A DNA stretch of 64,000 bases from Escherichia phage ECML-183-2, in sequence record OL631481.1; one strand, 5' to 3'. Position 1 is the first letter of the stretch; each line of letters opens with the position of its first letter. Shown one piece after another: positions 2,946-31,166 of the stretch. The position numbers and the translations under genes are program-made. The notes beneath the pieces are model-generated. The model was not told where the DNA came from and did not search any database. It worked only from the letters and a program-made list of their open reading frames with translations.

Positions 2946-5613
2946 TATAACCGGAAGGAATGTTGTTATAATCAGAAAGTTTTGTGCAATACCTGAATAG
3001 GTAACTATTAGCTACTCCGCCTAATGTATTTGTTAATGTTGTTCCTGTTCCTGTAAGATTTGTGCATCCACTAAAGAAAGAAGATAATGCTCCACGTTTA
3101 CCACAAACAGTTAACCCTGGGTTGTCATTAAAGATCTTATTAAAATCTGTAAGTCCTAAACAACCTTGGAATGTAGCTGTTAAAGAGGTCACTTTCGTTG
3201 GAATATTATCAAACATTCCTGCTGGAACTTCTGCAAGAGAGGTGCAATCTTTAAAGGTGTAAGAATATCTTGTAACTTTTGATAAATTTTTAAATAAATC
3301 AGAAGGAATAGATGTTAAAGACGTACAACCTTCAAACGTGCTTGACATTGTTGTCATCGAAGGAAATAAAGTATCGCTGAATAATCCTTCAGGGATAGCT
3401 GTCAAACTTGTGCAGCCAGAGAAAATACCACTTATAGACGTTCCGGTGTAAGATGTGTTACTGAAACAATCAGAGGTTATTCGTCTTAAGTTAGCACAAC
3501 CTTTTAAGAATTGTGAGGCTGGGCTTGTAGAATAACTAATCCTGTTGCCGCCCCATAATTCTAAAAGACTTGGGTTTGCTTCCATAGACACTTCCACACT
3601 ATTAACTACTGAAGCACTTGCAAATTCAATAGCCAGTCTATATTCTCCTGCGGGATAACTATCCACTGTAGAGAAAGCTTTGTTTCTAAATATTACTTTA
3701 CTTGAAGGAACTACAACGTCATCCACCTTAACTACAAAGTTAGCTGGTGTAACAGTACCCGATAAAGTTGGGAACGTAATCGCCCCATCTGCCGAGTGGT
3801 TGAAATATCCGTTTAGAACCGTTAAACTACTACTCGGAGATGGAGCTAACTCCTTTCCCGCAACAGCGTTCACCGTTAAATAAGAACTATCAGAAGCGGT
3901 AACAACACCTTGATATGTAGCTGTGCAACCAATTCTACAACCACCATCACCAACACCAGTTATTACACCAGTTGTAGGATCTACTGTAGCAACATTAGGA
4001 TCTGTAGTTGTATACTCAACAACCATACCAGGTAAGCTTGCTGCTCCTGTTGGCGTTATTTCTGCTACCATTGTTTGTGTTGTTCCTACATCCATCGCAG
4101 ATAAGCTAGGAGTGTAAACACTTAATGTTGAAGCATATCCTCCAGAGGTATCTGATAAAGTTGTTCCTTCAGCGTTTAAGGCTGTCATACCCGCATCAAA
4201 ACCACCTTCTGCATGGAAAGTCATTACACCAGTAGACGATATTGTCATGTTTGCAGGGGCAGAAGAAGTGTATTTAATATTGAAAAGTTTACCTCCTTCT
4301 GGGCTAACAGAATGTGTCAACTGTTTAGTTCCACCTACAATACAAATTCCTAAAGAATCTGTAGTTAAGCCTGTTGCCAGAATATCGCCCGTAATCACGG
4401 AGCTTGCTATTGGTGTGAATTTATTATAATTTAGACCACTATTGAATAGATACGAGGCTTTCCCATCTTTCCAAATACCGGAATAATACATATCTCCATT
4501 ATAAACGAAAAAGGTTCCTTGATAACCTAATTGGTTAGTAATATCCATATTCAGCGTATGAACGCTTGTGAGCTTGTTTATATCCCAGGAACCCACTCCT
4601 TCAGGTTTAACTGGTTTTCCCACTTGGAGTGGATCTCCGCTCGCAGAATCATACCCCAAACCTAAGTTTGCAGTGTAGTTCTTACCAATAGCCCACAAGG
4701 AATTATTGATCCCAACGAAAAAAGAGTGGCGGCTTGGTGGAAATTTCCATGTTGAAAAACCTGCTGCAAAGGTGTCCAGTTTAGTGTAGGTTGTTTCTGT
4801 ATTAGATCTAACATATAAGTAGTTTACTGTACCCGCGCCACCGGAGGTATCTCCTACAATTATTGTCTGGGAAACTGTATTGATGTAATCTTTGACATAC
4901 ACTGTTTCAGTAGTGGATATCGTGGCATTGACAAAAGCGGTTGTTGTGTTATTATTACCTGCTAAACCTTTACTGGCTCCACAAACACGCAAGGTTCCCA
5001 CATTGTTGACATAAGAACATTGATTGTAGCCTGCATCAAAAGCAACTGCTGCACTTGTTATCTGACGAGGAGTAGAAACTTCGTTAGTAGTACTTGCACC
5101 TAAACTACCTACTGTGTTTTGACCTGATCCATAAAGAACACCACTATTCATTAACCAGAGAGTATTGTTATATCCTCCCTTAACCTCTTTAAGATTAGCT
5201 AAAGAGATAGTCCCTGTTATTACAGATGGAAAGCTGGTCCAAGTAGTTACACATGCATCCGTACCACCTGCTGCTATAGATCCTACCAACCCTGCTGTCA
5301 ATCCTGAATATTGCCATCCCCCACTGTTAGTTTTAATAACAAAACAACGATCTGCGGTAAACACATCCGCTACTACAGTAGAAGCTAAGTGGAAATTATT
5401 GAATCGTGCACTACGAGTTCCATCTGCAATCTCACCAAAGAGGTTTGCGCCTTGAGTAAACAATCTACCATCATTAAGCAAAATTGCTAAACTACTGTTA
5501 GAATTACCAGCGTTATCTGGGTAATCTAAAGTAATTACTTTTTTAACAATACCTGCTGGCAGAGGAACGACACCAGTGCTGGTCATAATAGTAAATATTG
5601 GAATTGGAAACAT
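2941..5613 (-). CDS. tail fibre / receptor-binding protein with RCC1-like repeats, Ig-like (Big_2-like) domain and BspA-type leucine-rich repeats
   Basis: 890 aa; N-terminal G-rich propeller-like repeats, central Ig-like region, C-terminal repeated CTSLTxIPxxLF units. Confidence 0.55.
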   Translation of the reverse strand: MFPIPIFTIMTSTGVVPLPAGIVKKVITLDYPDNAGNSNSSLAILLNDGRLFTQGANLFGEIADGTRSARFNNFHLASTVVADVFTADRCFVIKTNSGGWQYSGLTAGLVGSIAAGGTDACVTTWTSFPSVITGTISLANLKEVKGGYNNTLWLMNSGVLYGSGQNTVGSLGASTTNEVSTPRQITSAAVAFDAGYNQCSYVNNVGTLRVCGASKGLAGNNNTTTAFVNATISTTETVYVKDYINTVSQTIIVGDTSGGAGTVNYLYVRSNTETTYTKLDTFAAGFSTWKFPPSRHSFFVGINNSLWAIGKNYTANLGLGYDSASGDPLQVGKPVKPEGVGSWDINKLTSVHTLNMDITNQLGYQGTFFVYNGDMYYSGIWKDGKASYLFNSGLNYNKFTPIASSVITGDILATGLTTDSLGICIVGGTKQLTHSVSPEGGKLFNIKYTSSAPANMTISSTGVMTFHAEGGFDAGMTALNAEGTTLSDTSGGYASTLSVYTPSLSAMDVGTTQTMVAEITPTGAASLPGMVVEYTTTDPNVATVDPTTGVITGVGDGGCRIGCTATYQGVVTASDSSYLTVNAVAGKELAPSPSSSLTVLNGYFNHSADGAITFPTLSGTVTPANFVVKVDDVVVPSSKVIFRNKAFSTVDSYPAGEYRLAIEFASASVVNSVEVSMEANPSLLELWGGNRISYSTSPASQFLKGCANLRRITSDCFSNTSYTGTSISGIFSGCTSLTAIPEGLFSDTLFPSMTTMSSTFEGCTSLTSIPSDLFKNLSKVTRYSYTFKDCTSLAEVPAGMFDNIPTKVTSLTATFQGCLGLTDFNKIFNDNPGLTVCGKRGALSSFFSGCTNLTGTGTTLTNTLGGVANSYLFRYCTKLSDYNNIPSGYK

Positions 5614-26463: not shown

Positions 26464-28452
26464 TTAACCACCAGTGTTAGATTGTCCGCTTAGAGTTGAA
26501 AGAGACAAACGTTGAAAAATGCTATTTCCGCTATTTTGAATTCTTGCATCAAGAATATTTCCAAACTCTGAAGAAGGGCTGATCGTAACTTTGATAAGAT
26601 CACTTGGTATTGCTACCGTATTCTCAACAACAGGTTGATTACGAGCCAAACTTACGTTAGGTGTATAGGCTGATTCACGTAAATCTTCAAGAGGATTACC
26701 AAATCCAAAAGCACGTGTCCTTGTTTGTTCTCCTCTCCACATACGACCAATGTCTTGTGTATCAATACCTGTTAAATTGTACAACCAATCTGCTACAGGA
26801 TTGCTGTCTCCACTTTGCGTTGCCTCGTATGCTTTTTGTGCCATAGATTTATTAGGATCTGTGTTGTCTCCGAATGTATCTGGGAATGTTTCTTTAAGCC
26901 AATTGGTAAAAGATCCGAAACCATCTCCCAATTCTTTAGCAAAACCTCCTAATTGAACTGTTGTCTTACCGAGTTCTTCACCTAAATCTTTGGCAAACTG
27001 ATCTAGCACTTTAACGTTATCCAACCAAGAATCATCTTTAGGTAAGGCTTTCACAAAACCCTCTAAGAAGTGGTTCTGCATACCTTGACCTACAAGCTGA
27101 ACTGTTGCAGCAAAACGAGTAAACTCTTTAGAAGCATCTATTTGTTCTTGAGTTAATGTTGCACCTGTTCTTTGAAGCATTTTCAATACTTCATTATACC
27201 CTTCGCCGTTTTTACTAAACATACGTTGGTAGTGCATAAGGTCATCACCAAGGTTTTCAAGAAGTCGCCCGATTTGAGCAGAGTTCATACCTCGACGCTC
27301 ACCTTCATTAACAGTAGCCTGAATAAAAGCTAAAGGATCGTTCTGTAAAGGTTTAAGCTGTTCTGGATTCCATCCAAACAAGTTCATAATGTCATTTATG
27401 CCATTATCACCGCCTTTCCACTTCCCTTCTTTCTCATTCCACTTTGCAGCTAAAACGGTATTACCAAGACGTTCACGAACGTCTTTAATATTATCTATTG
27501 ATTTAATAATATTTGCAGAGTCTACACCGTTCTGTTCACCCCAAGCTGTCATTGCCAAAATAGCGTTGGCGTTTGTCTGAACGTTTTCAGCACCACGGCT
27601 TACAAGTTTAATTCTTTCGTTAGTATTCATCAACGTGTTACCAACTACAGAACCACCTGCAAACAGACCAGCACCTATCAAAGAGGATGCAATCATACGT
27701 GGATTAAGACCTGCTGCACCCTCTTTTAATTGTCCGTATCGACGATCACGATCACGTTTTTGTTGAGCTAATTCACGCTTACGGTTGCGTTCTATATCTC
27801 TAAGTTCACGATTTCGCATACGTATACGCATTTTAGCTTCTGCTTCTAGCTCTCTACGAATACGGCGACGACCGCGAACCTCGTCTTCTATTTCAGCATT
27901 CTTTTCACGATGAGATCTGCGTAAAGCATCCAACTGGTGAGCAAGAGCTTGGTTCATACGTTGAAGAGTTATTTCACCCTTTTTGTATTGCTCTACAGCT
28001 TTACCCATAACGTCTCTAGCTTCTTGCATAGCACCAGGACTTGCTTTACTAAATGCTCTTGCTCGGTAGTTAAAGTTCTGTAAACGAAGATTACCTAAGT
28101 CTTCCCTACGTGCTGCTGCTTTAGCTTCTCGTTCAGCCGCTTTACGAGCTTTTTCTTCTTCTCTACCTTGTGGGGTTTTAGGAGTTCTAGGTCTACCAGA
28201 ACCACCTACAGGAGCACCCGCTCCAGCGGGAGTAGGTGCTCGCATAGGTTTTTGGCTTTGAGTTTGAGCTTTCTTAAGTTCACGCTCAATCTCTTTCATT
28301 TGTTGTCTAAACTTGGTCATGTTCATCGTGGGTTGCATTTTATTTGCAAACTTCTGAACACTCAACACGGCATCTTTTGCTTCCTTGAGACTGTTCTTGT
28401 CCACCTTAAACGTAACCACGTTACTAATTCTGGAGGCGTTAATTTCTAACAA
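26464..28452 (-). CDS. tail tape measure protein
   Basis: 662 aa; long Arg/Glu/Lys-rich helical region; position after chaperone genes. Confidence 0.6.
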   Translation of the reverse strand: MLEINASRISNVVTFKVDKNSLKEAKDAVLSVQKFANKMQPTMNMTKFRQQMKEIERELKKAQTQSQKPMRAPTPAGAGAPVGGSGRPRTPKTPQGREEEKARKAAEREAKAAARREDLGNLRLQNFNYRARAFSKASPGAMQEARDVMGKAVEQYKKGEITLQRMNQALAHQLDALRRSHREKNAEIEDEVRGRRRIRRELEAEAKMRIRMRNRELRDIERNRKRELAQQKRDRDRRYGQLKEGAAGLNPRMIASSLIGAGLFAGGSVVGNTLMNTNERIKLVSRGAENVQTNANAILAMTAWGEQNGVDSANIIKSIDNIKDVRERLGNTVLAAKWNEKEGKWKGGDNGINDIMNLFGWNPEQLKPLQNDPLAFIQATVNEGERRGMNSAQIGRLLENLGDDLMHYQRMFSKNGEGYNEVLKMLQRTGATLTQEQIDASKEFTRFAATVQLVGQGMQNHFLEGFVKALPKDDSWLDNVKVLDQFAKDLGEELGKTTVQLGGFAKELGDGFGSFTNWLKETFPDTFGDNTDPNKSMAQKAYEATQSGDSNPVADWLYNLTGIDTQDIGRMWRGEQTRTRAFGFGNPLEDLRESAYTPNVSLARNQPVVENTVAIPSDLIKVTISPSSEFGNILDARIQNSGNSIFQRLSLSTLSGQSNTGG

Positions 28453-28472
28453 AGTATGTTCCTCGTGTTGGA

Positions 28473-29221
28473 TTAAACAAGTTTCTTAAACAAATCTGAC
28501 ATTTTATTTGTCTGGTTTTGATGTTTTCTCTTTATTGAAGTGTCTTTAACATACATGGCTTCAACATACTCTTCGTATGTTAAATACTCATATAGTTTTA
28601 AAAGATAATCTACACCGTAGTTATCTAATGTTTTCAGTGTTTCCGAGGTATCTTTAACGACTTTGCAAAGAATAACCTCATACCACTTCAAAGTAAGGGT
28701 TTTCGTTGCTGTGTCGATAGCATGTTCAATCGCAGGTGTTAATTTGCTGCTAAACTCGTCATCGCCTGAAGCTGTGTGAACAGTTTTCCGAAACCTCGTT
28801 TGAAAAAAGGGCCGTAGTTTACCTCCAGAACTTTAGCAGTAAGATCTAACACTAGTTCTGGGTGAGCCATAAATAATTCATCAAAATTTTCTGCAACGTT
28901 ATAACCGTCTTGGGTATAAACCTCATCTAAAATTTTACGCAAAAAGACAGTTAAATTCTTTTCTTCCAAACCTGCAAAAAGTTGGATCAGTGCCATAGCA
29001 ATACGTGACTCAAGGTCTTCGTCTGCGGACATTGTTGCTGTGCTATACATAGTCATAGGAACAACCAGAACACTACCCAATTCTGGAATCCTGTCAAACA
29101 CTTTAGATGGACTCCACTTCATAATACGGAAAGTAACAGATCTGTTTCCATCTAACGGAATCTCAACTACTTCTTCTGGTCGAGCATATTTTTGAATTGT
29201 GTTATCTTGTTCTTGTGACAT
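28473..29221 (-). CDS. tail assembly chaperone, -1 frameshifted extended isoform (gpGT-like)
   Basis: T TTT TTC heptamer (plus coords 28802-28808) in frame GGC CCT TTT TTC; the -1 frame is open from there to stop at 28473. Confidence 0.5.
28739..29221 (-). CDS. tail assembly chaperone (gpG-like, zero-frame product)
   Basis: 160 aa ORF between tube and tape measure genes; contains slippery heptamer near its 3' end. Confidence 0.55.
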   Translation of the reverse strand: MSQEQDNTIQKYARPEEVVEIPLDGNRSVTFRIMKWSPSKVFDRIPELGSVLVVPMTMYSTATMSADEDLESRIAMALIQLFAGLEEKNLTVFLRKILDEVYTQDGYNVAENFDELFMAHPELVLDLTAKVLEVNYGPFFKRGFGKLFTQLQAMTSLAAN

Positions 29222-29236
29222 ATTTTCCTCTCTAAT

Positions 29237-29260
29237 GATAAAAAGGGCATTTCTGCCCTT
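29237..29260 (-). terminator. terminator/attenuator between tube and chaperone genes
   Basis: AGGGCA-GAAA-TGCCCT hairpin plus U-run on minus transcript. Confidence 0.45.
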
Positions 29261-29266
29261 TATTTA

Positions 29267-29746
29267 TTATTGAATTGTCAGAGCAGAGATTGAGTTAAGG
29301 GTGCTCAAACCTACACCAACTTCATTACGCAGAAGGCTTGCATCTTTAAGACCAATAACCCATTGGTTCTCTGTAATCATTTCGCCAATAGTATCTTCAG
29401 GCTGACTTTGAATCCATCCAATCGTGCTAATGTAATAGCCACGTGGGTCTTCCAAGTAAACACTGAATGCTACTTGACGAGTAGAATACATTGTTTGTGC
29501 ATATGTTGCAAGTACTTCGTTAGCTGGAGATGTGCGTTGCAAAGACATTGTGAGTGTTCCCAAACGGTTACGACTCAAAGCTAATGAAACGTCCCCATCA
29601 GTCCCTGAATAAGGGTTGATAATATCGTTAGATTTAGCAATAACGATTTTAGTATCAGCCGCAAAACCCCACGGTTCCCAACCACCTAATGAAAGGATAA
29701 CTTGAGATGGGTCGTAGGCCATTACGCCAGTAAGCATTTTATCCAT
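29267..29746 (-). CDS. tail tube protein
   Basis: 159 aa ORF immediately downstream of sheath gene. Confidence 0.55.
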   Translation of the reverse strand: MDKMLTGVMAYDPSQVILSLGGWEPWGFAADTKIVIAKSNDIINPYSGTDGDVSLALSRNRLGTLTMSLQRTSPANEVLATYAQTMYSTRQVAFSVYLEDPRGYYISTIGWIQSQPEDTIGEMITENQWVIGLKDASLLRNEVGVGLSTLNSISALTIQ

Positions 29747-29792
29747 TATAGATCCTCTTTATTTTGATAACGGGGGCTTAACCCCCGCCGTA

Positions 29793-31166
29793 TTAGTTTG
29801 CAGTACGGTTAGTCAGGACGTTGACCTGAACTTTAACGTAATGGAAGAAGCCAGCGTAAACATATTCAATCTTCATCCCATCAACCAGACGAGCATTGAT
29901 TTGCGCATCGGTCATATCGGCACGAGAAGGAATATAAACAATAGGTTTCAGATCGACACGCAAACCAGTCTCTTCAGAAGTAACAACTTCATTAGCGATG
30001 GAACCGTTGAGGATACCTACTTGGATCGGGTTAGCCAGAACAGCTTGTCGAATCAAAGCTAGACCATTTGAAGTAGCACGAACACCACCACCCAGCATAG
30101 ACTGTTGTTTAAACAGTGTAAACAGTGATTCTTCTGTGCGAGCTTTAAACCACAAAGCATGAACAACATAGTCAACAAAGAAACCGCTAACCATCAATCC
30201 ATCACGATAGAACAGAGTTCCATGCTCTTTACGATAGATGTTACCGTTCTGTTGAACAATATTGTTTTCCGAAGTCTGATCCAGTTTCTCGATCTCTACA
30301 CCTACCAGTGTTTTACCGTGAAGGGTAGTTAAACCAGGTTGACGAGAACAGATAGCACCAACAACTGCTGCTTCTGGGAATACAGAATCTGCATCGGTCA
30401 TCCACAATGCAAAGCAAGTGTTATTATAACCGAGATCATTCAGTCGTTCCAGAACGTTATCTTCTGCTTTCGTTTTAATTCCAGGTTCAGAGCTAGAGAA
30501 GAAGTAAACTTTATCATTCTCTTCTACCCATGCAGCCAAAGCTAGAACATCTTCTGTTTCATGGGAATCTGAAAGGGTCCAGAACCAGCTACTATCAATA
30601 TCATGCAGAGCAGCGATATCTTCCGTAATAGCATTAGCATAGACAGTTTCTTGAGTGAAACCTGTGCTGTCAATAGAACCAAACTTACCTTCTACTGGAG
30701 TGAAAGTCATTGCAGCGCCGTTGTTAGCTACTGTAAACAGTGGGCCATAAACAAGGTCTGCATTGATCATTTCAGTCAGACCAACTACAATCTCTTGTGC
30801 AGTTGCAGTGTCATCAGCAATGAATTTAAATTCTTTTTTCTTGGTACCATTTTTGATGGTAATTGTGTAAGTTGCACTATCTTCTACGATTGGAGTTAGA
30901 GTAAAGTTTGTAACTTCACGCTTACCAACCATAACTTGATCTGGTGGGAACAAACCGTTAAACAGTTTGACTGCCATAATATACGCTGGATCATTTAATC
31001 CATAACCTGCTTCCAAAAGTGCATCGGAAGAAGAGTAATATTGAATCGCTTCGCCAGTTACGTTCTGACCTGTAAGGATCAGGGGAATATCGAACTGGGT
31101 TTCACGAATTGATGTAGCACCATACAGTAAAGTTACGGTTGCTACCTTTTCACGAAAAGTTGCCAT
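29793..31166 (-). CDS. tail sheath protein
   Basis: 457 aa; size and position upstream of tube, chaperone and tape measure genes. Confidence 0.6.
   Translation of the reverse strand: MATFREKVATVTLLYGATSIRETQFDIPLILTGQNVTGEAIQYYSSSDALLEAGYGLNDPAYIMAVKLFNGLFPPDQVMVGKREVTNFTLTPIVEDSATYTITIKNGTKKKEFKFIADDTATAQEIVVGLTEMINADLVYGPLFTVANNGAAMTFTPVEGKFGSIDSTGFTQETVYANAITEDIAALHDIDSSWFWTLSDSHETEDVLALAAWVEENDKVYFFSSSEPGIKTKAEDNVLERLNDLGYNNTCFALWMTDADSVFPEAAVVGAICSRQPGLTTLHGKTLVGVEIEKLDQTSENNIVQQNGNIYRKEHGTLFYRDGLMVSGFFVDYVVHALWFKARTEESLFTLFKQQSMLGGGVRATSNGLALIRQAVLANPIQVGILNGSIANEVVTSEETGLRVDLKPIVYIPSRADMTDAQINARLVDGMKIEYVYAGFFHYVKVQVNVLTNRTAN

What the first reader, a model, noticed from the sequence alone, without database searches (positions are those of the whole stretch)
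28473..29221. Programmed -1 frameshift site in the tail assembly chaperone gene
Near the 3' end of the 160-aa chaperone ORF the mRNA reads GGC CCT TTT TTC, containing the canonical X XXY YYZ heptamer T TTT TTC (plus coordinates 28802-28808). The -1 frame is open from there through the separately listed 72-aa ORF to a stop at 28473. This is the conserved G/GT arrangement between tube and tape measure genes and would give a roughly 230-aa fusion.
Basis: partly seen in the sequence, partly recalled or inferred. Interest (0 to 1): 0.55.

Follow-up and report, generated by a model that had tools for sequence, protein, structure and literature searches.

The report
Tail chaperone frameshift site, confirmed
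This E. coli phage almost certainly makes a long form of its tail-assembly chaperone by letting ribosomes slip back one base at T TTT TTC, a well-known phage trick that has simply not been annotated in this phage group.

Summary
On the minus strand, the 160-aa tail assembly chaperone gene (29221..28739) contains T TTT TTC in the zero frame at 28808..28802. The -1 frame runs open from there to the stop at 28475..28473. The fusion protein would be 249 aa, not about 230. A second heptamer, C CCT TTT (28811..28805), overlaps the first and gives the same protein.

The window is a Phapecoctavirus, 99.8% identical to phage ESCO13. The gene order is sheath, tube, chaperone, -1 ORF, tape measure.

Comparative evidence is strong:
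- The in-phase heptamer is present in all 68 related loci where it was sought, with chaperone identity down to about 30%.
- The preceding codon varies (CCT, TGT, TCT, AGT) but always ends in T.
- The -1 frame always continues more than 200 nt and evolves like coding sequence.
- No conserved start codon or Shine-Dalgarno site exists for the -1 ORF.
- More distant relatives carry G GGA AAG or A AAT TTT instead, which argues for ribosomal slippage rather than RNA polymerase slippage.

No downstream RNA structure is supported. None of 22 public records examined annotates the fusion. A 2025 paper proposes the same device in sister phage families.

Verdict: a real but ordinary new member of the lambda G/GT class, and a correction to the annotation. 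No experiment has tested it.

The parts
28739..29221 (-). Short chaperone form (G-like, TAC-N), 160 aa, ATG at 29221 and TAA at 28741..28739
28802..28808 (-). Slippery heptamer T TTT TTC in zero-frame phase (codons 139-140, Phe-Phe). This is the proposed -1 shift site, and base 28802 is read twice.
   Evidence: The heptamer is in phase in 68 related loci, which comprise 40 unique proteins and 5 clusters at 50% identity.
28805..28811 (-). Second, overlapping heptamer C CCT TTT. It is found only in the Stephanstirmvirinae-like group, and a slip here gives the same protein.
   Evidence: It is absent from Vequintavirinae, which have G CTG TTT TTT C.
28473..28802 (-). The -1 frame extension (T-like part, 109 aa, QTRFRK...FKKLV) plus the stop at 28475..28473. 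The long form GT is join(29221..28802, 28802..28473) on the minus strand, 249 aa.
   Evidence: PHROG 16039, 10409 and 8811 hits. Differences by codon position 21/8/42 against phiWec188. No conserved start or SD.
28779..28811 (-). 33-nt block CCCTTTTTTCAAACGAGGTTTCGGAAAACTGTT, invariant among five phages that are otherwise invariant at only 53% of aligned positions
   Evidence: it is the longest invariant run in the 774-column alignment, and the next longest is 12 nt.
28822..28826 (-). Shine-Dalgarno-like GGAGG, 13 nt upstream of the heptamer (possible stimulator, inferred only)
   Evidence: Read from the sequence. It is present in many relatives but absent from CB7, CR9, K54_rec1 and L057.
28782..28795 (-). 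Weak 5-bp hairpin GGUUU-CGGA-AAACU, 6 nt downstream of the heptamer (doubtful stimulator)
   Evidence: -0.7 kcal/mol here and about -2.9 in Vequintavirinae. RNAalifold does not support it. The sequence is equally well explained by the conserved -1-frame peptide RFR[KR].
29267..29746 (-). Tail tube gene (context, immediately upstream)
   Evidence: PHROG 280 and Pfam KPP10_Orf10. RefSeq calls it 'virion structural protein'.
26464..28452 (-). Tape measure protein gene (context, immediately downstream; TTG start 20 nt after the T stop, preceded by GAGGA)
   Evidence: PHROG 16051 at E = 0. RefSeq annotation. Sequence.

Best explanation
This is the tail assembly chaperone locus of a phAPEC8-like myovirus (genus Phapecoctavirus).

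Most ribosomes translate the 160-aa short chaperone and stop at 28741..28739. A minority pause with the P and A sites on CCU-UUU or UUU-UUC, and the tRNAs re-pair one base back (UUU UUC to UUU UUU). These ribosomes then read CAA ACG AGG... in the -1 frame up to the stop at 28475..28473. The product is a 249-aa long form: residues 1-140 of G followed by a 109-aa T part.

By analogy with lambda gpG/gpGT, the shared N-terminal part would coat the tape measure protein and the T part would recruit the tube protein. The frameshift efficiency would then fix the ratio of the two forms.

What is shown: the sequence, the reading frames, the homology, the conservation and the purifying selection. What is inferred: that slippage actually happens, how often it happens, and what the two proteins do.
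For: 1. The heptamer is in phase and the -1 frame is open for 109 codons.
2. The upstream ORF is a tail assembly chaperone, and the gene order is sheath-tube-TAC-(-1 ORF)-TMP.
3. T TTT TTC is in phase in all 13 GenBank relatives aligned (all but Vibrio S4-7 and Barba18A) and in 47 of 47 analysable IMG/VR loci. These span Stephanstirmvirinae and Vequintavirinae, at about 30-35% chaperone identity. The -1 frame extends 242-278 nt past the G stop, while the +1 frame closes within 7-61 nt. Aeromonas phage phiA019 also has the heptamer.
4. The codon before the heptamer is CCT (Pro), TGT (Cys), TCT (Ser) or AGT (Ser). The amino acid changes but the final T never does.
5. The longest invariant nucleotide run in the locus, 33 nt, starts exactly at the slip site.
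6. The conceptual fusions align end to end. The motif RFR[KR] sits in the -1 frame directly after the site, upstream of any possible start codon, and a conserved L-x-W-[YF]...Y-L-L-K...E-Y-L domain follows.
7. Substitutions in the T region concentrate at -1-frame codon position 3, for example 21/8/42.
8. No start codon or SD is conserved. In Hena1 the first ATG/GTG/TTG is 81 codons after the site, and gene callers chose at least 7 different starts.
9. More distant homologues carry other canonical heptamers at almost the same place: G GGA AAG in Rheinheimera phage Barba18A and A AAT TTT in Vibrio phage S4-7. Barba18A keeps FR.PSGD in the -1 frame, as rV5 does. These heptamers are not homopolymer runs, so they fit ribosomal slippage and not polymerase slippage.
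10. Measurements in E. coli show that UUN A-site codons and all-pyrimidine X/Z motifs are among the more shift-prone (PMC4066793).
11. The same device has been proposed for the sister families Vandenendeviridae and Andersonviridae (PMC12846349).
Against: There are no experimental data for this phage group, neither a junction peptide nor a reporter assay.

No stable or conserved downstream stimulatory structure was found. The fold z-score is 0.03, RNAalifold returns an empty consensus, and Rfam has no frameshift element here. Efficiency may therefore be low and cannot be predicted.

The 68 loci are not independent: they form only 5 clusters at 50% identity. The IMG/VR loci were retrieved with a peptide pattern that lies next to the site.

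The overlap region is conserved in both frames, so the 33-nt block does not by itself show which frame or which RNA feature is constrained.
Confidence: 0.85

Rival explanations
1. Transcriptional slippage. RNA polymerase stutters on the T6 run and adds one extra U in a fraction of mRNAs. Ordinary translation of those mRNAs gives exactly the same 249-aa protein (GGC CCU UUU UUU CAA...).
For: The site is a run of six T, conserved in length in 68 loci. Homopolymer runs are known polymerase slippage sites (reviewed in PMC5009743). The protein product would be indistinguishable from that of ribosomal slippage (derived).
Against: From general knowledge, efficient slippage by bacterial RNA polymerase needs runs of about 8-9 or more, and six is short. 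The run is never lengthened to T7 in any of the 68 loci. Homologous loci in Barba18A (G GGA AAG) and Vibrio S4-7 (A AAT TTT) have ribosomal-type heptamers with no homopolymer run.
Confidence: 0.07
2. The downstream ORF is a separate small gene, as it is annotated in public records, translated from its own start (TTG at 28691 or ATT at 28730). No frameshift occurs.
For: RefSeq and GenBank records annotate a separate 'hypothetical protein' here. Protein databases hold it as ORFs of 64-85 aa.
Against: No SD precedes any candidate start in the window or in 13 relatives. The annotated starts differ from record to record, fall at 7 or more positions, and often cut into the conserved domain. In Hena1 the first possible start is 81 codons after the site, and in L033 it is 68 codons. 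Conserved -1-frame sequence (RFR[KR] and the segment before L-x-W-Y) lies upstream of all starts. ESCO5, Hena1 and WPEC1 records annotate no such gene on this strand.
Confidence: 0.03
3. Chance, a sequencing error or a decaying gene. The heptamer and the open -1 frame have no function, or G and T were once one gene now broken by an indel.
For: A heptamer in a 30-codon stretch is expected about 12% of the time (derived).
Against: The same two-frame arrangement occurs in more than 68 independently sequenced genomes and metagenome contigs. No database protein joins G and T in one frame: the best query coverage was 64% and no hit was longer than 175 aa. The T region is under purifying selection. 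The 109-codon open -1 frame is a clear outlier among the 72 heptamers in the window.
Confidence: 0.01
4. The shift happens in this phage mainly on the upstream heptamer C CCU UUU (P site CCU to CCC, A site UUU to UUU) or on both tandem heptamers, rather than only on U UUU UUC. This is a variant of the main explanation and not an alternative to frameshifting.
For: C CCT TTT is in phase and conserved in all Stephanstirmvirinae-like loci. All-pyrimidine heptamers with a UUU A-site codon are shift-prone in E. coli (PMC4066793).
Against: Vequintavirinae and phiA019 lack CCC yet keep T TTT TTC, so the shared ancestral site is T TTT TTC. The two sites cannot be told apart from the protein product.
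Confidence: 0.2

Closest known systems
Phage lambda gpG/gpGT and the conserved tail-chaperone frameshift of dsDNA phages (Levin et al. 1993; Xu, Hendrix & Duda 2004, as cited in PMC5009743 and PMC8785237)
   Same: Two overlapping ORFs lie between the tail tube gene and the tape measure gene. [quoted passage not shown] The second ORF has no start of its own. No strong downstream structure is needed.
   Different: The heptamer is T TTT TTC, or tandem C CCT TTT TTC, instead of G GGA AAG. The chaperone belongs to a different Pfam family (PF21822) with no detectable sequence similarity to lambda gpG. The phage has a contractile tail. Function and ratio are untested.
Proposed -1 frameshift in the chaperone locus of Vandenendeviridae (Pakpunavirus Adele) and Andersonviridae, with an invariant GTTTTT motif (PMC12846349, Dec 2025)
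   Same: These are sister lineages with the same virion module. They have a T-run motif near the 3' end of TAC-N and an uninterrupted -1 frame of more than 200 bp, and the downstream ORF is routinely mis-annotated as a hypothetical gene. In Vequintavirinae the site reads TGTTTTTTC and contains GTTTTT.
   Different: That paper analysed Vandenendeviridae and Andersonviridae only. Stephanstirmvirinae (this window) read CCCTTTTTTC, a full canonical heptamer in tandem. I did not test sequence homology between the two sets of chaperones.
Phage P2 gpE/gpE+E' (recalled from Christie et al. 2002, not checked here)
   Same: A contractile-tailed phage in which a -1 frameshift on a T-rich heptamer produces a chaperone extension just upstream of the tape measure gene.
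   Different: There is no detectable sequence relationship. The details of the P2 site are from memory.
Phage T7 gene 10A/10B frameshift (G GUU UUC; cited in PMC12846349 and PMC8785237)
   Same: A -1 slip with tRNA-Phe on a U-rich site ending in UUC, in E. coli, giving a minor C-terminally extended form.
   Different: It is a capsid gene, not a tail chaperone, and the heptamer and context differ.
E. coli dnaX frameshift signal (upstream SD-like element plus downstream stem-loop)
   Same: A GGAGG lies 13 nt upstream of the heptamer, within the spacing that stimulates -1 shifts in dnaX (from memory).
   Different: There is no stable downstream stem-loop. The SD-like element is not conserved in all relatives.

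Membership tests
G/GT-type tail assembly chaperone with programmed -1 frameshift | Two overlapping ORFs located between the major tail/tube gene and the tape measure gene | tested here: met
   Order on the minus strand is sheath 31166..29793, tube 29746..29267, G 29221..28739, -1 ORF to 28473, TMP 28452..26464.
G/GT-type tail assembly chaperone with programmed -1 frameshift | An X XXY YYZ slippery heptamer in zero-frame phase inside the overlap of the two frames | tested here: met
   T TTT TTC at 28808..28802 and C CCT TTT at 28811..28805, both inside the 91-nt overlap.
G/GT-type tail assembly chaperone with programmed -1 frameshift | The second ORF lacks its own conserved start codon and ribosome binding site | tested here: met
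   No SD before any ATG/GTG/TTG in the window or in 13 relatives, and start positions are not conserved.
G/GT-type tail assembly chaperone with programmed -1 frameshift | Site and two-frame arrangement conserved among diverged relatives, with the second frame under protein-coding selection | tested here: met
   68 loci, 40 unique proteins and 5 clusters at 50% identity all have the site. Excess of third-position substitutions in the -1 frame. T part matches PHROG families of other subfamilies.
G/GT-type tail assembly chaperone with programmed -1 frameshift | First ORF is a tail assembly chaperone by sequence family and fold | tested here: met
   [not shown]
G/GT-type tail assembly chaperone with programmed -1 frameshift | The long form is actually made, at a low fixed ratio to the short form | not testable with these tools
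   This needs a reporter assay, western blot or mass spectrometry.
G/GT-type tail assembly chaperone with programmed -1 frameshift | Both forms are needed for tail assembly; the G part binds the tape measure and the T part binds the tube protein; both are absent from virions | not testable with these tools
   Inferred from lambda only (PMC5009743). The T model was too poor to use (pLDDT 65, pTM 0.35).
Lambda gpG sequence family itself | Sequence similarity to lambda gpG/gpT families | tested here: not met
   Only PF21822 matched at E <= 0.1, and no other chaperone family did. The T part has no Pfam match. No PDB sequence match. The locus works like lambda G/GT but is not a sequence member of that family.
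dnaX-type stimulated -1 frameshift signal | Stable stem-loop or pseudoknot 5-9 nt downstream of the heptamer | tested here: not met
   Fold z-score 0.03. RNAalifold consensus is empty over 36 unique sequences. No Rfam match. Only a 5-bp hairpin of -0.7 to -3 kcal/mol is possible.
dnaX-type stimulated -1 frameshift signal | Shine-Dalgarno-like element about 10-14 nt upstream of the heptamer | tested here: inconclusive
   GGAGG at 28826..28822, 13 nt upstream. Similar elements occur in many relatives, but CB7, CR9, K54_rec1 and L057 lack one. The sequence also encodes the conserved Leu-Glu-Val.
T-run frameshift of Vandenendeviridae/Andersonviridae chaperones (PMC12846349) | Invariant T-run motif near the 3' end of TAC-N, and an uninterrupted -1 frame of more than 200 bp reaching the tape measure gene | tested here: met
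   CCCTTTTTTC here and TGTTTTTTC in Vequintavirinae. The -1 extension is 242-278 nt.
T-run frameshift of Vandenendeviridae/Andersonviridae chaperones (PMC12846349) | Homology of the chaperone proteins to those families | not tested
   tblastn with the window and rV5 chaperones did not retrieve Felix O1-like or Pakpunavirus records at the thresholds used. No profile comparison was run.

The most novel reading that the evidence does not exclude
The invariant 33-nt block is a compact frameshift signal of a kind not yet characterised in bacteria. It would consist of two overlapping heptamers (C CCU UUU UUC) giving ribosomes two chances to slip, helped by an upstream GGAGG at 13 nt and a very small hairpin 6 nt downstream. 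Together these would set the G:GT ratio without any stable RNA structure.
Probability: 0.15. Interest if true: 0.45.

Novelty: new member of a known kind. Interest (0 to 1): 0.3.

Why it matters
The tail-chaperone frameshift is textbook phage biology, so the mechanism itself would not surprise a specialist.

The practical value is in annotation. None of the 22 GenBank and RefSeq records I inspected, from phAPEC8-like, phi92-like, rV5-like and related phages, annotates the joined product. The downstream part is called a 'hypothetical protein' with arbitrary starts, is omitted, or is replaced by an opposite-strand ORF. About 360-500 records in the phage collection carry a homologous chaperone. 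Several of these phages are used or proposed for therapy and biocontrol.

The comparative set also gives a clean natural experiment. The same chaperone family uses T TTT TTC, G GGA AAG or A AAT TTT at nearly the same position. That could be used to study how heptamer choice sets the short-to-long ratio.

Tried and rejected
- **Downstream stimulatory structure.** I found none. Single-sequence folding of 102 nt after the site gave z = 0.03. RNAalifold on 36 unique sequences returned an empty consensus. Rfam returned only two sub-threshold sRNA matches elsewhere.
- **Small hairpin.** A GGUUU-loop-RRRCC hairpin can form in 34 of 36 sequences but is weak (mean -2.2 kcal/mol, against -1.0 for background 18-mers). 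Its 3' arm is explained by Lys/Arg codons in the -1 frame. I do not count it as evidence.
- **Which frame is more conserved in the overlap.** The comparison was inconclusive: 27% identity between subfamilies in frame 0 and 22% in frame -1.
- **Fused proteins in databases.** I searched with the conceptual fusion for annotated or naturally fused G-T proteins. No hit was longer than 175 aa or covered more than 64% of the query.
- **Structure of the fusion.** G and T were modelled separately. The G model is moderate. The T model is too poor for a fold search.
- **PDB sequence search.** No hits.
- **Literature.** No paper in the searchable library reports this frameshift for phAPEC8, phi92, rV5, Phapecoctavirus, Stephanstirmvirinae or Vequintavirinae. 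The library is open-access only, so the absence is not proof.
- **Measured efficiency of U UUU UUC.** I could not get the value from Sharma et al. 2014, because the data are in figures that are not held.

Full report
**What the window is.** A 1.5-kb query around the finding is 99.8% identical to Escherichia phage ESCO13, and more than 60 other phAPEC8-like phages match at 99% or more (genus Phapecoctavirus, subfamily Stephanstirmvirinae). On the minus strand the genes run in this order:
- tail sheath, 31166..29793 (PHROG 205, Pfam DUF3383);
- tail tube, 29746..29267 (PHROG 280);
- a 160-aa ORF, 29221..28739;
- a short ORF ending at 28473;
- tape measure protein, 28452..26464 (PHROG 16051).

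**Checking the observation.** Codons 137-141 read GGC CCT TTT TTC AAA, so T TTT TTC lies at 28808..28802 in X XXY YYZ phase. Translating the -1 frame from 28808 gives 111 codons with no stop until the TAA at 28475..28473, and it passes through the 72-aa ORF listed separately.

Two corrections are needed:
- The fusion is 140 residues of G plus 109 -1-frame residues, which is 249 aa and not about 230.
- A second heptamer, C CCT TTT (28811..28805), overlaps the first. A slip on either yields the same peptide...VLEVNYGPFFQTRFRK....

**Is it more than chance?** Within this window, 60 gene proxies contain 72 in-frame heptamers in 17,575 codon positions. A heptamer somewhere in the 30-codon overlap is therefore expected about 12% of the time, which is unremarkable on its own. 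After the other 70 heptamers, however, the -1 frame stays open for a median of about 5 codons and never more than 26. After these two it stays open for 109 and 110 codons.

**Comparative evidence.** I fetched the homologous locus from these sources:
- phi92, phiWec186/188, Citrobacter phage Tr1 and Klebsiella phage KP13-16 (Stephanstirmvirinae);
- rV5, SSE121, Hena1, K54_rec1, CB7, CR9, 18-1-2 and UPEC06 (Vequintavirinae, 29-39% chaperone identity);
- 48 IMG/VR contigs.

Every one that could be analysed has T TTT TTC in zero-frame phase inside the overlap. The -1 frame continues 242-278 nt past the chaperone stop, and the +1 frame closes within 7-61 nt. In total, 68 loci carry the site. They comprise 40 unique chaperone sequences, 12 clusters at 70% identity and 5 clusters at 50% identity.

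The codon before the heptamer is CCT (Pro), TGT (Cys), TCT (Ser) or AGT (Ser). The amino acid changes while the third-position T is always kept. This points to selection on the nucleotide rather than on the protein.

Among five Stephanstirmvirinae that are invariant at only 53% of aligned positions, the longest invariant run is a 33-nt block that begins exactly at the slip site: CCCTTTTTTCAAACGAGGTTTCGGAAAACTGTT, 28811..28779. The next longest run is 12 nt.

One caveat applies. One of the two peptide patterns used to retrieve the IMG/VR loci lies just upstream of the site. That biases retrieval towards conserved flanks, although the heptamer itself was not part of the pattern. The GenBank set was retrieved by tblastn with the whole protein.

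**The -1 ORF is coding but is not an independent gene.** Conceptual fusions from 13 phages align over their whole length. The motif RFR[KR] lies in the -1 frame immediately after the site, and a conserved domain (L-x-W-[YF]-[ED]...Y-L-L-K...E-Y-L) follows. The window's T part matches PHROG 16039 (1e-44), PHROG 10409 (3.2e-9) and PHROG 8811 (1.3e-4).

Substitutions against phiWec188, phi92 and Tr1 fall mainly on -1-frame codon position 3: 21/8/42, 27/16/50 and 28/15/52.

No candidate start codon in the -1 ORF has a Shine-Dalgarno sequence, in the window or in 13 relatives, and start positions are not conserved. In Hena1 the first ATG/GTG/TTG is 81 codons after the site, well inside the conserved domain. 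Database gene calls for this ORF are 64-85 aa long and begin at seven or more different columns.

No protein in the 5.8-billion-sequence database spans both parts. No hit was longer than 175 aa or covered more than 64% of the query. So there is neither a natural single-frame fusion nor an annotated joined product.

**Ribosome or RNA polymerase?** An extra U added by polymerase stuttering on the T6 run would give the same protein, so mass spectrometry alone cannot decide between the two. Comparative data help. The chaperone of Rheinheimera phage Barba18A has G GGA AAG, the lambda heptamer, three codons downstream of the equivalent position. The -1 frame there extends 224 nt and reads ...VFRIPSGD..., which matches rV5's ...RFRKPSGD.... 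Vibrio phage S4-7 has A AAT TTT, and Aeromonas phage phiA019 keeps T TTT TTC. Replacement of one canonical heptamer by another that is not a homopolymer run is what ribosomal slippage predicts and polymerase slippage does not.

Systematic measurements in E. coli also show that UUN A-site codons and motifs with all-pyrimidine X and Z are among the more shift-prone (PMC4066793).

**Stimulatory elements.** No downstream structure is supported:
- Folding the 102 nt after the site gave z = 0.03.
- RNAalifold gave an empty consensus over 36 unique sequences.
- Rfam has no match at the site.

A 5-bp hairpin, GGUUU-loop-RRRCC, can form 6 or 9 nt downstream in 34 of 36 sequences. It is weak (-0.7 kcal/mol here), and its purine-rich arm is explained by Arg/Lys codons of the -1 frame.

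A GGAGG lies 13 nt upstream (28826..28822). Similar elements occur in many relatives but not in CB7, CR9, K54_rec1 or L057. I treat both features as possible modulators and not as evidence.

**Mechanism proposed.** Most ribosomes finish the 160-aa short form. A minority slip one base back on C CCU UUU UUC and continue to 28473, making the 249-aa long form. By analogy with lambda gpG/gpGT (PMC5009743), the common N-terminal part would bind the tape measure protein and the T part would recruit the tube protein, with the slip frequency setting their ratio. The sequence anatomy, homology, conservation and selection are shown here. The occurrence and frequency of slippage, and the protein functions, are inferred.

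**Comparison with what is known.** This is the conserved tail-chaperone frameshift described by Xu, Hendrix and Duda in 2004 (cited), here in a contractile-tailed phage with a chaperone of a different Pfam family. A December 2025 paper proposes the same device, with an invariant GTTTTT motif, for Vandenendeviridae and Andersonviridae. It notes that these families are related to Vequintavirinae and Stephanstirmvirinae but does not analyse the locus in the latter two (PMC12846349).

I found no paper reporting it for phAPEC8, phi92, rV5 or their subfamilies in the open-access library. None of the 22 GenBank and RefSeq records I inspected carries a joined CDS.

**Verdict.** It is a new member of a known kind, of modest interest. 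Its main use is to correct the annotation of a large group of therapeutic-candidate phages. It also offers a natural series of alternative heptamers within one chaperone family.

Noticed in passing
window 29242-29261 (- strand): A terminator-like hairpin (AAAGGGCA-GAAA-TGCCCTTT followed by a T-rich tail) sits in the 45-nt gap between the tube gene and the chaperone gene. It could lower expression of the chaperone and tape measure relative to the tube protein. Some public records annotate a terminator here.
   Followed up: partly
window 28452 (- strand): The tape measure gene starts with TTG, 20 nt after the stop of the -1 ORF, and is preceded by GAGGA. phi92, phiWec188 and Tr1 also use TTG here.
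   Followed up: no
L068 (Rheinheimera phage Barba18A) 1123-1817; L014 (Vibrio phage S4-7) 1063-1838: Distant homologues of the same chaperone carry different in-phase heptamers at nearly the same place: G GGA AAG (identical to lambda's) and A AAT TTT. In both, the -1 frame stays open for 218-224 nt.
   Followed up: partly
L068 1832-2470: In Barba18A an HNH endonuclease gene on the opposite strand is inserted between the -1 ORF and the tape measure gene.
   Followed up: no
L008-L011, L015 (Vequintavirinae), just after the stop of the -1 ORF: A strong terminator-like hairpin directly follows the T stop codon, before the tape measure gene (for example taatctcaaGCCGGGTTCCttttcGGGAGCCTGGCttttt). 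rV5's record annotates it as a rho-independent terminator. The window has no equivalent.
   Followed up: no
public records matching window 28473-29221: Annotation of the -1 ORF is inconsistent. It has an ATT start in ESCO13 RefSeq, is absent from ESCO5 and Hena1, is replaced by an opposite-strand 'hypothetical protein' in WPEC1, and the chaperone is called 'tail tube protein' in some BASEL phages.
   Followed up: partly
public records matching window 28300-29800: Records labelled Campylobacter phage (B15 and others), Acinetobacter phage vB_AbaM_ABPW7 and Klebsiella phage ZCKP1 are 99.3-99.7% identical to E. coli phapecoctaviruses over this region. This suggests mislabelled hosts or contaminating phages.
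   Followed up: no
[not shown]
   Followed up: no
window 4717-4723 (- strand): This is the only other T TTT TTC in phase within one of the 60 gene proxies, an ORF of about 890 aa. The -1 frame closes after 6 codons, so it is not a candidate recoding site.
   Followed up: yes
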